Origin: Promethearchaeota archaeon
GTDB taxonomy: Archaea; Asgardarchaeota; Lokiarchaeia; Sigyniarchaeales; SOKP01
Length of the DNA stretch: 64,000 bases
Direction of reading: 5' to 3'
Assembly: GCA_019058445.1 (NCBI GenBank)
Contig: JAHPZA010000001.1
Coordinates: 141,439 to 205,438 of the forward strand
The notes beneath the pieces were generated by a model. That model had not been told where the DNA came from. It was given only the letters and a program-made list of their open reading frames with translations, and made no database searches. The number at the start of each line of letters is the position of its first letter. Position 1 is the first letter of the stretch. Positions 54,717 through 64,000 of the stretch are shown in pieces. Made by a program: the position numbers and the translations under genes.

Positions 54717-54892
54717 TTTAAAATCTTATATTTTATAAATTAAGTATTATTTCTTGCTTAAAATAAATATAACTTATTGTTTTAAACGAAATTTTTTGTA
54801 TTTACAAGTCCTGCAAACAATCTAAATTCAGGAACATACCCTCTCAAAACTTCCACTTAAAGTATTAAATAAATCATTCATTTAGTTGATCT

Positions 54893-55941: not shown

Positions 55942-56113
55942 ACTCAGGAACACACCCCCTCATTAATCGCGACTTACCATTTTTCATCATGCTTACCACT
56001 TCACACACACTTGACTTCACTCCTGAACATTCAAAGCCCGAACCACGAGTCCTTTTTCAACACCACACACTCGTGCTGTTGAGAACAGCGGGCTAAATAG
56101 GTCGCCCGGAAGC
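55942..56113 (-). repeat. Direct-repeat copy of the 23S rRNA 3' end plus trailer (partner at 62375-62551)
   Basis: 56017-56113 identical to 62455-62551 (97 bp); the remaining ~75 bp are similar but diverged. Confidence 0.96.
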
Positions 56114-59156: not shown

Positions 59157-59600
59157 TCAAATTTTTTTAAAGCCTTTAGAATCTAATATATCATTACATA
59201 ATTTATCACATTTTTGAATGAAAGCATTCCTACGTCCAATATGATAAAATTCTACTTTGCTGTATTTATTGCAGAGAGAATAGACTTTATTGCATAATTC
59301 AGACAGGTGTGGATAATTAATTCTCCAGTTTTTTTTAATCTGATTTACAGCTAATTTACTATCAGAATAGACTTTTATAACCCATCTCGTAAATTTCTCA
59401 GCTTCTTTTAAAGCATTAATAATAGCTAAATATTCAGCTGTATTGTTTGTTGCATTACCAATATACTCGCTTTTTTGATAAATAATTTCATCGTCTTTGA
59501 CATATATGAATGACCAGGAAGCAGGACCGGGATTCTTTCTAGCAGCTCCATCAACATAAATTTCCAATATTTCTCCTCGTTTCACAAGTTGTTTTTTCAC
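59157..59600 (-). CDS. rnhA: Ribonuclease HI
   Basis: YVDGAARKNPGPA, TNNTAEY, YSDSKL, N..CDKL. Confidence 0.92.
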   Translation of the reverse strand: MKKQLVKRGEILEIYVDGAARKNPGPASWSFIYVKDDEIIYQKSEYIGNATNNTAEYLAIINALKEAEKFTRWVIKVYSDSKLAVNQIKKNWRINYPHLSELCNKVYSLCNKYSKVEFYHIGRRNAFIQKCDKLCNDILDSKGFKKI

Positions 59601-59813
59601 TATTTTTCCTCAATAAATTACTTATCAATCAAATTTCTTTTAAAATCGCTAAAAATTTTAGAAGGATTTAAGTTTGACATCTATGTATTAAATAAAATCG
59701 ATGATATTTAAATCGAAAGTGTCTACAAGATGTTAAGAAAAATAGGAAAAAAATAAAAAAAAATCTAAAATCAGGTAAAACCCTCTTTATGATCACAAAT
59801 TTTTATTTTTACG

Positions 59814-60008
59814 TTATCCAATTCTTCTTTTCTTAAATGGGCCCTTTGCAAAAATTCTACCTCTTTCATCATGTCCAAGTTGCCAAACTTCACCACAATC
59901 TTCATTCGAACATACACCGATTACATTTTCATGAAAAATTGTTTTTGTGATTGTCATTTTTGACCTACAATGTGGACAAGATGATTTTTTGAATATTTCA
60001 AGATCCAA
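59814..60008 (-). CDS. Small zinc-finger protein
   Basis: CPHC..CSNEDC; GGTGA SD and TATA-like box (~60135) upstream. Confidence 0.6.
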   Translation of the reverse strand: MDLEIFKKSSCPHCRSKMTITKTIFHENVIGVCSNEDCGEVWQLGHDERGRIFAKGPFKKRRIG

Positions 60009-60419
60009 TTTAAAATCACCTTTTCAATAGTTTAATTGGTAATAGCTGTGTTAGCATTATTTGTTTTTCAAATCTTTTTTATTAACTTAATTTTTAATAA
60101 ATCATTTATTTGTTATCTAGTGCACAGAAGTTGTATATAAATGATAGGTTAATAGATTAGATCGTCCAGATCCGATCTAACAAAAAATCTCTGGATGTTC
60201 CGACATAACTCTCTCACCTTTTCTTTTCAACACAAAAATCCGTGACTTTGCCCATCCCCTCCATTAAAAGGCGAATTGAGGGGATTGTGTCGGTAACCGC
60301 AAATGTTGTTTTTAATTTTTTAAGTAAGGCCCTAAAGTAGTCAATTGACCTAAATTCGAAAGTAAAATTATTTATAAAAAGCTATAAAAACAAAAGAACT
60401 AAATTCTTGATCTTTTCTT

Positions 60420-60995
60420 TTAAGGAGAGAAAAATGATCTAATTCTCGCGCATTTATCAGGATGACGCAACGGAATTAGGCAAGCGAAATCTCTTATATT
60501 ATCGTGTCCTGTAATGTATAATTGATATACATTCCGGTCATTTGGTAGATAAACTCCGCTATGAATTGAAAATTGGTTTAATAGCTCTTGTAGAATGCAA
60601 ATTTTTATATTTTCTGAAGAATAGATTGAAAGCATGGGTTGATTCGTTCCCGTTGTCGTGGCGCTCCCTTCCGCGTCAAAAAAACCCGCTATCCATTGCT
60701 GTTGAAATTCTGGTTTAATTAATCTTACCAACTCTGGATTATTTTTAACTTCCAATATTTTGGTTACCAGCTCTTTATGAAAAAACCGGAGCCTATAATG
60801 AAGGCGATTAGTATGCGGTCTAATAATAATATCTTTATTAATCAAATCTCTGATGAGAGGTTGGATTTGTTCCAACCAACCTAGTGAGGCTGAATCTAAA
60901 TCAAATTCGTATCCTTTTTGGGGGCTAGTTCTTACATAGGCATCCTCGGCAACTCCGCAGATATACCAGAATTCTGAGAACAATTTAAATTCCAT
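60420..60995 (-). CDS. Free-standing LAGLIDADG homing endonuclease
   Basis: WYICGVAEDAY (degenerate motif 1), WIAGFFDAEGS (motif 2), IPLRHPDK. Confidence 0.88.
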   Translation of the reverse strand: MEFKLFSEFWYICGVAEDAYVRTSPQKGYEFDLDSASLGWLEQIQPLIRDLINKDIIIRPHTNRLHYRLRFFHKELVTKILEVKNNPELVRLIKPEFQQQWIAGFFDAEGSATTTGTNQPMLSIYSSENIKICILQELLNQFSIHSGVYLPNDRNVYQLYITGHDNIRDFACLIPLRHPDKCARIRSFFSP

Positions 60996-61189
60996 ATTAT
61001 TAGATTTTTAAAAGAAATGTTTAAAGCCTATGACCTACTTAACTTAGTGGTTTTTTTATAAGAGAAAAAGGAGAAAAAATCTTTAGAGTCCAATTAGAAA
61101 AATCTTTTTCAATACAATCCAATTTTTAATTAAAATTATTAAATTATTATTAAATTTTTTTTTAAGACAGGATATATTAATACGTTAAG

Positions 61190-62227
61190 ATGGAAGAAAT
61201 AAAACAATTCAAAGAAACCAATTCTCCAAAATTAATTTACATTGATCAAAATCATTGGTCAAAATTGGAAAGAGTATATCACGAAATCGAAAGAGATTCA
61301 ATAGTAGAAAATTTATTAGAGAAAATTTTTGACCTAAAAGAAAATGGGAAAATAAAAATTCTAATTGATATAAATCGTAAGATTGAGACATCTCAACGAG
61401 ATATTAAGGAAACACGAGAAAGGCTTACAGATTTAATGCTCGAGTTATCAGATGGTTATTTTGTTCTTCCTTTTTTAGTTCTTGAGGAATTTGAAATAAT
61501 GAATTATTTTAGTAGAAAACTAGGAATCCGTCAATATAATATATTAGATTTGGCAATCGGGCAAGAATTTCAACATTTAATGGTAGGAGAACCTTCTATT
61601 TCAAGTGATGAAATTGATAAGGATGAATTAAATCAAATTAATCATAAAATTCATGAATTAATTCAAAATCCATCATTTATTAAAGATATTTTTTGCAAAC
61701 CATCAGAAAGAGATGATGAAAGTAAGCTCAAATATATTAGAGATGCTGAAAATGTGCGTATACCGTTATATTCAATGGAAACAAATAGAGAGCGCAAAAT
61801 ATATCAAACAACTCATGATTTCACGCATTTAATGAGAAAAATTTTTAAAACATACAAAGTAACTGATGATTATATAGGAAAAATTCCAGATATTGATAGA
61901 GCATCAAATGCTTTGATGCTTCGTAATAACATTCCTAGAAATTTAGGGGAATATAAGGATAGATTAAAATTTATGAAAAATTTTCCCATGTTTTATACTC
62001 ACTGCACGTTAATAGGTTTCAGAGACAGAGATTTAAGACGTCAAATCCAAGCAAATGATTTGATAGATATTGTAAGTTTTGTATTACCAATTGTTTATTT
62101 TAATGTAGTCGTGGGCGAAACATATTTTATAAACTTAGCAAAACAAGCTAAACTAGATTCTGAATACAATTCTGCTCTGTTTAGTAAATTGTTAGAACTA
62201 AAAGAATATTTAGAAAATTTAAGTTAG
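61190..62227 (+). CDS. PIN-like domain protein (putative nuclease)
   Basis: IYIDQNHW..IE..NDLID..Y..VVVGE acidic motif spacing. Confidence 0.6.
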   Translation: MEEIKQFKETNSPKLIYIDQNHWSKLERVYHEIERDSIVENLLEKIFDLKENGKIKILIDINRKIETSQRDIKETRERLTDLMLELSDGYFVLPFLVLEEFEIMNYFSRKLGIRQYNILDLAIGQEFQHLMVGEPSISSDEIDKDELNQINHKIHELIQNPSFIKDIFCKPSERDDESKLKYIRDAENVRIPLYSMETNRERKIYQTTHDFTHLMRKIFKTYKVTDDYIGKIPDIDRASNALMLRNNIPRNLGEYKDRLKFMKNFPMFYTHCTLIGFRDRDLRRQIQANDLIDIVSFVLPIVYFNVVVGETYFINLAKQAKLDSEYNSALFSKLLELKEYLENLS

Positions 62228-62606
62228 CAGGTTAAACAAATTTTCTTCAGACATAAATAAACTTAAGCAATCATAATTGAAGTTGTTTTAATATGTCAAT
62301 TAACATTAAAATTTTAACGTTTTAGAATTATTTTTCATAAAAAAAATAAGAAAAAAATAAATAAAAAAATCTTAACTCAGGAACACACCCCCTCACCAAT
62401 CGCTTCTTTTCTTGCCATTATTCAACACGCTTACCACTTCACACGCACTTAACCTCACTCCTGAACATTCAAAGCCCGAACCACGAGTCCTTTTTCAACA
62501 CCACACACTCGTGCTGTTGAGAACAGCGGGCTAAATAGGTCGCCCGGAAGCTCCCTACGTACACCCCTGTCTCACCAACCCCGTCTTTTACGGGTGCACT
62601 CGTCCT

Positions 62607-62848
62607 AATCCCGCGGTTGCTGTCACCAGCCCCCGCTCTAATTAGTTTGACAAGCTAATCATTTGGACTATGATGCTATGTTTTGCGCTGCGCTACTGCG
62701 CTATGCTCCACGCTACTGCGCTTCGCACTGTAAAATGCACAATTGTAAAATAATACATGTCCGGCTGACTTCCGGCCTACACAGGGCATAAAGCCTTGTC
62801 AGCCGCATCAGCCCAAATCACAAACTCAGCAAAATAATCTTACGGAAA
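62607..62848 (-). other. Supersized expansion segment at helix 98 (ES39), ~240 nt
   Basis: Long insert between conserved flanks ..CGTCCT and AGGAATGGATGACTATTTTCGGGG. Confidence 0.8.
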
Positions 62849-62874
62849 AGGAATGGATGACTATTTTCGGGGCC

Positions 62875-62909
<35 letters not shown>

Positions 62910-63032
62910 TAGCGCGTAGCTGCCCGGCGATGCCTTGTCAGACAACCGGTACACCAGAGGCGCCGGCAAAATGTTCCTCTCGTACTGATTTTCCCTTACC
63001 CTCAGTCCTCCAACAAACCCAGTAGATAGAAT

Positions 63033-63075
<43 letters not shown>

Positions 63076-63107
63076 TTAATGGGCGTACAGCCCCACCCTT
63101 GGGAGTT

Positions 63108-63140
63108 ATGCGCTCATTTCCAATACACGGAAATAATATG
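63108..63140 (-). other. ~31 nt insertion in the 23S helix 91 loop (relaxed-BHB intron or expansion; ends approximate)
   Basis: H91 spans 51 nt instead of ~20; internal hairpin UUAUUUCC/GGAAAUGA. Confidence 0.6.
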
Positions 63141-63225
63141 TGCGCTCCCAGGATAGGAAGAGCCGACATCGAGGAAGCAAGCCACGAGGTCGATAGGAGC
63201 TCTTACTCGTGACAACTCTGTTACC

Positions 63226-63256
63226 TTCCCGCGCATCGAGGCATTCTCGGATGCGT
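63226..63256 (-). other. 31 nt BHB intron in the 23S peptidyl-transferase centre (~E. coli 2446/2447)
   Basis: UUAC-CCCG-GG|A-CGCAU...AUGCG-CGGG-AA|G-GUAA is a canonical bulge-helix-bulge. Confidence 0.88.
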
Positions 63257-63269
63257 CCCGGGGTAATTT

Positions 63270-63363
63270 TTATAGAACGCACAGTAAATCTGCGCATTTA
63301 TATAGAACCCACAAAACTCGAGTCGCTAATATCTATCTATTAACTCCATTGATGTGGAAGTTT
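63270..63363 (-). other. Two stacked BHB-type introns (64 nt at 63300-63363 and 30 nt at 63270-63299) at one 23S site (~E. coli 2430s)
   Basis: 5' exon AUAG-AA pairs with either of two CUAU half-sites; removal restores GGUGAUAGAAAAAUUACCCC. Confidence 0.8.
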
Positions 63364-63860
63364 TTCTATCACCTCAACAAGCCACACAAGCAGCGTTAAG
63401 GATCGCTAGACCAGGCGTTAGCCTCAGGATTCCTTGGTAGTCAGAATCCAGTCAGGCCAGCTTTTGCTCTTAAACTCTGCGGCGGATTCCTGACCCGCCT
63501 GAGCTGACCATTGGTTACTCCAGATACCTTTTCTGGAGTGAGCCGCCCCAGCCAAACTGCCCACCTGCGGGTGTCCGTCACTTTCACGACGTTAGCGGTT
63601 CCAGAAAGGAAAGCCGGTGTTCCAATGTTGCTCCCCTACACCCGAAAGTGTAGGATCGACGCTCCCGACTACGCTCTGTATCCAGTCCAAAATCGCAACA
63701 ACAAGCTGCAGTAAAACTCCACGGGGTCTTCTCGTCCCACTGGGCTTCTCCGGACCGTTCGCCGGAGTGTGATTTCAATCGTCAGGAGGTTGGGACAATA
63801 GGGAGAACGTTGGACCATTCATGCACGTCTGAACTTACCAGACAAGGCATTTGGCTACCT

Positions 63861-63889
63861 TTCTCTCGAGGCTCGAGATGAGAGCTCGT
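63861..63889 (-). other. 29 nt BHB intron in 23S (~E. coli 1927)
   Basis: ACU-CUCU-UA|A-CGAG...CUCG-AGAG-AA|A-GGU; removal restores CUCUUAAGGUAG. Confidence 0.9.
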
Positions 63890-64000
63890 TAAGAGAGTTA
63901 TAGTTACTCCCGGCGTTTAGCAGGACTTACTGCGGTTGTAACCGCGATTTATCAGACTGCCACTGGCCAGGTTTCAGCCTCTGTAAACAAGCTTTCGCTC

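What the first reader, a model, noticed from the sequence alone, without database searches (positions are those of the whole stretch)
60335..61040. Free-standing LAGLIDADG endonuclease beside a 23S full of ORF-less introns: possible homing in trans
Seen: a compact 191 aa LAGLIDADG gene lies 1.5 kb downstream of the 23S on the same strand. It is bracketed by a short imperfect inverted repeat (AAGTAGTCA at 60335 and TGACCTACTT at 61031). None of the 23S introns visible here encodes an ORF. Known: archaeal rRNA introns often carry such genes internally, and collaborative homing between free-standing endonucleases and ORF-less introns is described in phage. Inference: the mini-introns may shield this rDNA from the enzyme and spread together with it and the cassette.
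Basis: partly seen in the sequence, partly recalled or inferred. Interest (0 to 1): 0.72.

Follow-up and report, generated by a model that had tools for sequence, protein, structure and literature searches.

The report
Free-standing homing nuclease behind Asgard 23S
A selfish DNA-cutting gene of a kind normally carried inside an intron of the large ribosomal RNA gene sits here just behind that gene, whose probable cut site is blocked by a 31-base intron; the same pairing recurs in four other Asgard archaea, which suggests one way their tiny introns spread.

Summary
The 191-aa LAGLIDADG gene (60420-60995, minus strand) is real, I-DmoI-like and intact-looking. Motif 1 is the family's normal form. 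The bracketing inverted repeat is chance.

Fourteen related lineages sit inside a BHB intron at one 23S site (L2450, E. coli numbering), which gives the probable target. Here L2450 is empty, but a 31-nt ORF-less intron at L2446 splits the site 4 nt away; 37 relatives keep it intact. The L1927, L2433 and H91 inserts do not track the nuclease.

The layout recurs. In all 5 Asgard genomes where both can be read, a free-standing 23S-intron-type nuclease lies just behind the 23S and an ORF-less intron sits at or beside its own family's site. The gene lies in a 6.4-kb insertion bounded by a duplicated 23S end.

Self-protection is well supported. Cleavage and joint spread are inferred only; one of the five copies is already broken. 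Nearest precedents are phage collaborative homing and archaeal I-PogI. This scan has noted similar nuclease/mini-intron pairs at protein genes of other archaea. New variant of a known kind.

The parts
60420..60995 (-). Free-standing monomeric two-motif LAGLIDADG endonuclease, 191 aa, of the family that otherwise lives in 23S L2450 introns
   Evidence: ORF; PF14528; homologues 54-69%, their intron context; I-DmoI best by profile and fold; model pLDDT 97.8
60939..60965 (-). Motif 1 (Y11-A19, acid D18 at the end of helix 7-18); one residue shorter than motif 2, as in the whole family
60666..60695 (-). Motif 2 (W101-G110, acid E109 at the end of helix 95-109)
62497..64000 (-). 3' part of the archaeal 23S rRNA gene (model 1921-2987); cut off by the contig end
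63226..63256 (-). 31-nt ORF-less canonical BHB intron at L2446; splits the predicted target 4 nt from the family's insertion point (junction 63222/63221)
   Evidence: BHB read from the sequence; target inferred from intron-borne relatives
63270..63363 (-). Two-unit ORF-less intron at L2433 (64+30 nt); 17 nt from the predicted site, probably not the shield
   Evidence: also present with the L2450 nuclease intron in L033/L038
63861..63889 (-). 29-nt ORF-less BHB intron at L1927; site of a different nuclease family
63108..63137 (-). 30-nt helix-91 insert; common in relatives, unrelated to this gene
   Evidence: 24 of 40 genomes
62353..62551 (-). Proximal copy of the 23S 3' end and trailer (3' arm of the pre-rRNA processing stem)
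   Evidence: pairs with the 23S leader on contig C7
55920..56113 (-). Distal copy of the 23S 3' end and trailer; 97-bp core (56017-56113) identical to 62455-62551; bounds the 6.4-kb insertion
   Evidence: empty site in same-genus G052
59747..59802 (-). Decayed partial copy of the trailer downstream of the nuclease; possible end of an inner module of about 2.6 kb
   Evidence: 44 nt, 86%, partly poly-A
61190..62227 (+). Cargo ORF, 345 aa, antisense, between 23S and nuclease; no Pfam; bacterial look-alikes of unknown function
59814..60008 (-). Cargo: small zinc-ribbon-like ORF, 64 aa (weak hits only)
59157..59600 (-). Cargo: RNase HI-like ORF, 147 aa
57192..59064 (-). Cargo: three low-GC ORFs (233, 235, 116 aa) without family; no integrase or transposase in the insertion
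60335..60343 (.).

Best explanation
The gene is a homing endonuclease of the archaeal 23S L2450-intron family that now stands outside the rRNA gene. SHOWN: family, intact reading frame and motifs, position, the L2446 intron, the duplicated 23S end, the empty site in a same-genus genome, and the recurrence. INFERRED (about 0.9): it recognises the intron-less sequence around A2450, and the L2446 intron makes the host's only found copy uncuttable. INFERRED (about 0.7): it is still active. INFERRED (about 0.55): when this DNA meets an intact allele, the break is repaired from the donor. The mini-intron is copied because it lies at the break. The nuclease and cargo come along only when copying runs past the 23S end and rejoins the recipient's own 23S end, which is left displaced downstream as the direct repeat. 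Short repairs would give intron without nuclease, as in G076.
For: (1) 8 close lineages (39-69%) and 6 more distant ones (33-36%) sit in a BHB intron after A2450. (2) 37 class genomes have the exact intact site, 3 are interrupted (G000, G076, G152), and both genomes with the free gene are among the 3 (naive p 0.004). (3) Family-matched recurrence: G152 and G307 have ORF-less L2450 introns (30, 114 nt) plus a free L2450-family gene about 1.3 kb behind the 23S. G042 and G270 have ORF-less L2601 introns plus a free L2601-family gene. G000 and G152 are intact at L2601 and G042 is intact at L2450. (4) The free L2601 copies of three Asgard families form one group (97/95), which fits spread in the free state. 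(5) All 36 invariant residues kept; branch dN/dS 0.056, differs from 1 at p 0.0015. (6) Trailer copies lie behind the free gene in G000, G307, G270 and G050. (7) Same-genus G046, G047 and G048 keep cuttable sites.
Against: No cleavage, expression or transfer was observed. A blocked site is required for survival with an active enzyme, so the match shows target and past activity, not mobility. The G152 copy has a 1-nt deletion in codon 2 yet scores dN/dS 0.087, so that test cannot see recent decay. Free L2450-family copies are not one clade (AU p 1.3e-5; this gene with G152 p 0.029), so this gene has no shown free-standing sister. Duplicated 23S ends are also present in at least 5 relatives without such a gene. 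This is the only case protected at L2446, not at the family's own site. G076 has L2446 without the gene (84% complete).
Confidence: 0.55

Rival explanations
1. Stranded passenger. The 23S 3' end of Lokiarchaeia is a general landing site for foreign DNA. A nuclease gene from an L2450 intron was captured there, was tolerated only because L2446 already blocked its site, and will decay without moving further.
For: Partial 23S-end duplications in G055, G060, G062, G084 and G096, which lack the gene. Separate origins of the free L2450-family copies. G152 copy broken. The gene's GC (36.5%) differs from the other cargo (25-30%), so the insertion is a mosaic.
Against: No sign of decay here. Seven free copies of 23S-intron nuclease lie just behind a 23S or before a trailer copy, which chance capture explains poorly. 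Free L2601 copies form a cross-family group.
Confidence: 0.33
2. Host-kept function. The nuclease is retained because it destroys incoming intron-less rDNA, or promotes DNA capture at the 23S end, without needing to move itself.
For: Intact gene; stacked trailer copies at 62353, 59747, 55920 and 54804; another free LAGLIDADG holds one slot after the 16S in three lineages at about 70% identity.
Against: Very patchy: 2 of 161 class genomes, absent from 9 same-genus genomes, broken in G152. Capture at the 23S end happens without it.
Confidence: 0.08
3. Assembly artefact: the gene was misplaced from an intron of another organism's 23S near a contig end.
Against: The gene has unique AT-rich flanks without exon or intron-end sequence and lies 3 kb from the contig end. 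The same layout occurs in four independent assemblies, one nearly complete (G307).
Confidence: 0.04

Closest known systems
[quoted passage not shown]
   Same: Nuclease gene outside the host gene and close to it; ORF-less intron at or beside the predicted cut site protects the carrier.
   Different: Cellular archaeal chromosome, rRNA target, LAGLIDADG enzyme, protein-spliced BHB intron and not group I. In the phage model the free state precedes intron capture; here most relatives are intron-borne and the free state looks derived, at least twice (root unsure). Cleavage not shown.
I-PogI of Pyrobaculum oguniense (Nakayama 2003, cited in PMC4496867 and PMC10643990)
   Same: Archaeal rRNA LAGLIDADG nuclease coupled to a short ORF-less hairpin intron a few bases away (it cuts at S1205 and co-converts that intron).
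   Different: I-PogI is still encoded inside its own 16S intron (S1213); here the gene is 2.2 kb from the site, outside the rRNA gene, in an insertion with cargo.
I-DmoI and I-Tsp061I (archaeal rRNA-intron monomeric LAGLIDADG endonucleases)
   Same: Best sequence-profile hit (E 3e-7) and best folds (TM 0.67-0.74); two motifs in about 190 aa.
   Different: 21-24% identity to I-DmoI; motif 1 is one residue shorter; different target; not in an intron.
I-SceI / yeast omega intron at LSU 2449 (from my own knowledge, not checked here)
   Same: Targets the same conserved peptidyl-transferase stretch around 2448-2451.
   Different: Mitochondrial group I intron; no close sequence relation found.

Membership tests
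Monomeric two-motif LAGLIDADG endonuclease (I-DmoI type) | Two LAGLIDADG helices, each ending in an acidic residue | tested here: met
   D18 ends helix 7-18, E109 ends helix 95-109; both conserved in the family; motif 1 has the family's one-residue-shorter spacing
Monomeric two-motif LAGLIDADG endonuclease (I-DmoI type) | Tandem alpha-beta-beta-alpha-beta-beta-alpha fold | tested here: met
   Model pLDDT 97.8; Foldseek I-DmoI E 9e-10, I-Tsp061I TM 0.74
Monomeric two-motif LAGLIDADG endonuclease (I-DmoI type) | Site-specific double-strand cleavage of the intron-less allele | not testable with these tools
   Needs an assay; target inferred from 14 intron-borne lineages
Collaborative homing system | Nuclease gene is free-standing, next to the target gene | tested here: met
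   1502 nt after the 23S end, no exon or intron-end flanks
Collaborative homing system | ORF-less intron at the nuclease's target in the carrier | tested here: met
   L2446 lies 4 nt from the family's insertion site; 5 of 5 readable cases match; the target itself is inferred
Collaborative homing system | Partner intron is a self-splicing group I intron, as in the described phage cases | tested here: not met
   31-nt BHB hairpin; no group I hit in the window
Collaborative homing system | Intron and nuclease are inherited together through homing | tested here: inconclusive
   Free L2601 copies form a cross-family group, but free L2450 copies do not and G076 has the intron alone
Archaeal BHB rRNA intron | Bulge-helix-bulge at the junctions; removal restores the conserved rRNA | tested here: met
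   L2446, L1927 and L2433 restore the sequence found in intron-less relatives; H91 is less canonical
Archaeal BHB rRNA intron | Spliced out of the RNA | not tested
Integrase-driven genomic island | Direct repeat of the 3' end of an RNA gene at both ends, empty site in relatives | tested here: met
Integrase-driven genomic island | Encodes an integrase or transposase | tested here: not met
   None among the 7 ORFs by Pfam or NCBIfam

The most novel reading that the evidence does not exclude
Asgard archaea carry a general class of active, integrase-free mobile units in which an rRNA homing nuclease stands behind the rRNA gene, pairs with an ORF-less tRNA-type intron at its target, and by one-sided repair drags the intron and several kilobases of cargo into any relative's rDNA, leaving the old 23S end displaced. 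This would explain both the spread of tiny rRNA introns and gene accretion at the rRNA end.
Probability: 0.35. Interest if true: 0.8.

Novelty: new variant of a known kind. Interest (0 to 1): 0.62.

Why it matters
ORF-less BHB introns cannot move on their own and are usually read as decayed remnants or hitch-hikers of a neighbouring nuclease intron. A nuclease that stands outside the rRNA gene offers a third route, in the archaeal group closest to eukaryotes. The target is predicted to within a few bases, so one cleavage assay tests it. It would also extend collaborative homing from phages to a cellular rRNA locus and tie it to gene capture without an integrase. I found no paper describing this layout in seven searches of the open literature; subscription papers were not searchable.

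Tried and rejected
Inverted repeat as an element end or intron remnant: chance-level. A first impression that it resembles the L033 intron stem did not survive shuffling (p 0.55 and 0.94).

H91, L1927 and L2433 inserts as shields: not associated with this gene.

One origin for the free L2450-family genes: rejected (long branches in the set).

Branch dN/dS as proof of present activity: not usable, since the broken G152 copy scores alike.

GC-rich stretch 60150-60330 as a conserved RNA: no Rfam hit, no homologue in 160 genomes, folding z -0.8 and -1.9.

Bacterial-type promoter scan: at chance. A TATA-like hexamer 30 nt before the start codon is weak evidence in AT-rich DNA.

Exon mosaic test for recent 23S transfer: G076 too incomplete, no signal.

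There is no read evidence. Small-share RNA runs were not used.

Whole-genome Rfam searches missed the rRNAs known to be present, so their blanks mean nothing. PADLOC gave no defence system.

Full report
SETTING. The window is the end of contig C1 of a 4.6-Mb, 10-contig genome. A same-family genome, G152, is the record of a Promethearchaeota archaeon, so the host is a Lokiarchaeia-type Asgard archaeon. The window holds the 3' third of the 23S (62497-64000, minus). The 5' third is on contig C7 and the middle was not found.

OBSERVATION. The ORF 60420-60995 (minus, 191 aa) is real, hits LAGLIDADG_3 above cut-off and starts 1502 nt after the 23S. Four ORF-less inserts interrupt the visible 23S: L1927 (29 nt), a two-unit L2433 (94 nt), L2446 (31 nt) and H91 (30 nt); removing them restores the sequence of intron-less relatives. 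E. coli numbers were assigned by hand from the conserved sequence. The inverted repeat is present but ordinary: 62% of random ORFs of the genome do as well.

THE PROTEIN. The best solved relative is I-DmoI by profile (E 3e-7) and by fold (E 9e-10; I-Tsp061I TM 0.74). The model is confident (pLDDT 97.8) and puts D18 and E109 at the ends of the two motif helices. Motif 1 is one residue shorter than motif 2 in every family member, intron-borne ones included. The protein keeps 36 of 36 residues invariant among eight intron-borne relatives. Its branch has dN/dS 0.056 (p 0.0015 against 1), but the broken G152 copy gives 0.087, so this shows history and not present activity.

THE TARGET. Nine homologues were found at 39-69% identity. 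Eight are encoded inside a BHB intron inserted after A2450 of an archaeal 23S. Six more distant ones from other Asgard classes sit at the same site. Intron-borne LAGLIDADG enzymes cut at or a few bases from their insertion site (established; 15-30 bp sites, PMC4496867), so the target is inferred to be the intron-less stretch around A2450. In the window that junction (63222/63221) is empty, but the L2446 intron lies 4 nt upstream and replaces the left half of the site. The genome holds no intact copy.

WHICH INTRON MATTERS. Among 161 class genomes, 37 have the exact intact site and three are interrupted: this one, G076 and G152. Only this genome and G152 carry the gene; naive p 0.004 (genomes are related, so this overstates). 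H91 inserts are in 24 of 40 readable genomes. L1927 mini-introns are in three others, and that site has its own nuclease family. The L2433 pair coexists with the L2450 nuclease intron in L033/L038. Only L2446 fits a shield.

RECURRENCE. G152 has a 30-nt ORF-less intron exactly at L2450 and a free homologue 1.3 kb behind the 23S, with a 1-nt deletion in codon 2. G307, a nearly complete genome of another class, has a 114-nt ORF-less L2450 intron, an antisense ORF, an intact free homologue (41%) and then a short copy of the 23S end. G042 and G270 show the same design with a second family: ORF-less L2601 introns (120 and about 167 nt) and an intact free L2601-family gene right after the 23S. The match is family-specific: G000 and G152 are intact at L2601, G042 at L2450. 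G237 (L2601 family) and G050 (L1927 family) have free copies but unassembled sites. So 5 of 5 readable cases agree.

ORIGINS. Free L2450-family genes are not one clade (AU p 1.3e-5; this gene with G152, p 0.029), so the free state arose more than once or has traded back and forth with introns; the root is unsure. The three free L2601 genes, from three Asgard families, do group together (97/95). That is the best hint that such genes can spread while free. It concerns the sister family and not this gene.

THE INSERTION. The 23S end and trailer are repeated 6.4 kb downstream with a 97-bp identical core. Same-genus G052 has the 23S end joined directly to the genes beyond the repeat. No recombinase is encoded. 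The trailer is the 3' arm of the processing stem, and the distal copy pairs with the C7 leader at least as well as the proximal one (-108 against -106 kcal/mol), which weakly suggests the distal copy is the displaced native end. The two trailers resemble different relatives. Such duplications also occur in five relatives without the gene, so the 23S end is a general landing place.

MECHANISM. Most likely (0.55): a homing endonuclease whose own rDNA is protected by L2446 cuts intact alleles; repair copies the mini-intron always, and the nuclease with cargo when copying runs past the 23S end. Family, layout, protection pattern and insertion are shown. Cutting, expression and transfer are inferred. 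The main rival (0.33) is a captured, tolerated passenger on its way to decay. Because L2450 itself is empty here, the gene did not simply leave its own intron shell behind; L2446 is a separate element, also seen with compensated stems in G076 of another genus.

COMPARISON AND VERDICT. It resembles phage collaborative homing (PMC3984707) and the archaeal I-PogI case (PMC4496867), but is neither: the intron is BHB and the gene is outside the rRNA. I found no report of the layout. Earlier notes of this scan describe similar pairs at protein genes; they are unchecked leads and not counted as support. New variant of a known kind; interest 0.62.

Noticed in passing
L007:13224-13931 (contig C6 of this genome): A second free-standing two-motif LAGLIDADG (235 aa) directly after the 16S 3' end and before tRNA-Ala; 70% identical genes hold the same slot in two other lineages (L256, L258/L259). 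Target unknown.
   Followed up: partly
L261:1-1099 (G050, same genus): Free-standing gene of the L1927-intron nuclease family (63% to the L026 intron ORF), followed 1.3 kb later by a 23S trailer copy; its 23S is not assembled.
   Followed up: partly
window 63270-63363: Two introns stacked at L2433; removing the first rebuilds the splice motif of the second. Same design in G076 and L033/L038.
   Followed up: partly
window 54804-54859 and 59747-59802: Further decayed copies of the 23S trailer; the outermost matches the C7 leader exactly over 12 nt, as if successive insertions pushed older trailers outward.
   Followed up: partly
L263, L270, L272, L273, L274: Partial duplications of the 23S 3' end 3-7 kb downstream in five relatives without a nuclease: the 23S end is a lineage-wide landing site.
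   Followed up: partly
window 60150-60330: GC-richer stretch with hairpins just after the nuclease; no Rfam hit, no homologue in 160 genomes, folding not significant.
   Followed up: yes
L030:2371-2403 and about 2611-2630: Two short copies of an internal 23S sequence (33 bp, 91% for the first) downstream of the 23S in G152, next to trailer copies; unexplained.
   Followed up: no
L313 (G200) and L314/L322 (G175): Free LAGLIDADG genes right after a 16S end; in G200 that end looks interrupted, in G175 it is only a 20-nt fragment.
   Followed up: no
L293:2732-2981 (G260): Group I intron hit (Rfam RF00028, 61 bits) in an Asgard 23S that also has the L2450 nuclease intron.
   Followed up: no
L264:172-3180 (G050 contig C14): Array of 26 intron-less tRNA genes with a 297-aa LAGLIDADG frame directly after it; may be viral or misbinned.
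   Followed up: no
window 63108-63137, L156, L157: The H91 insert is nearly identical in G047 (same genus) and G056 (another genus), hinting at transfer of this 23S segment.
   Followed up: no
L308:1568-9197 (G307): 16S and 23S are much longer than the models (2666 and 4804 nt) and hold several inserts, some with ORFs.
   Followed up: no
window 62607-62848: Long, repeat-rich expansion in 23S domain VI.
   Followed up: no
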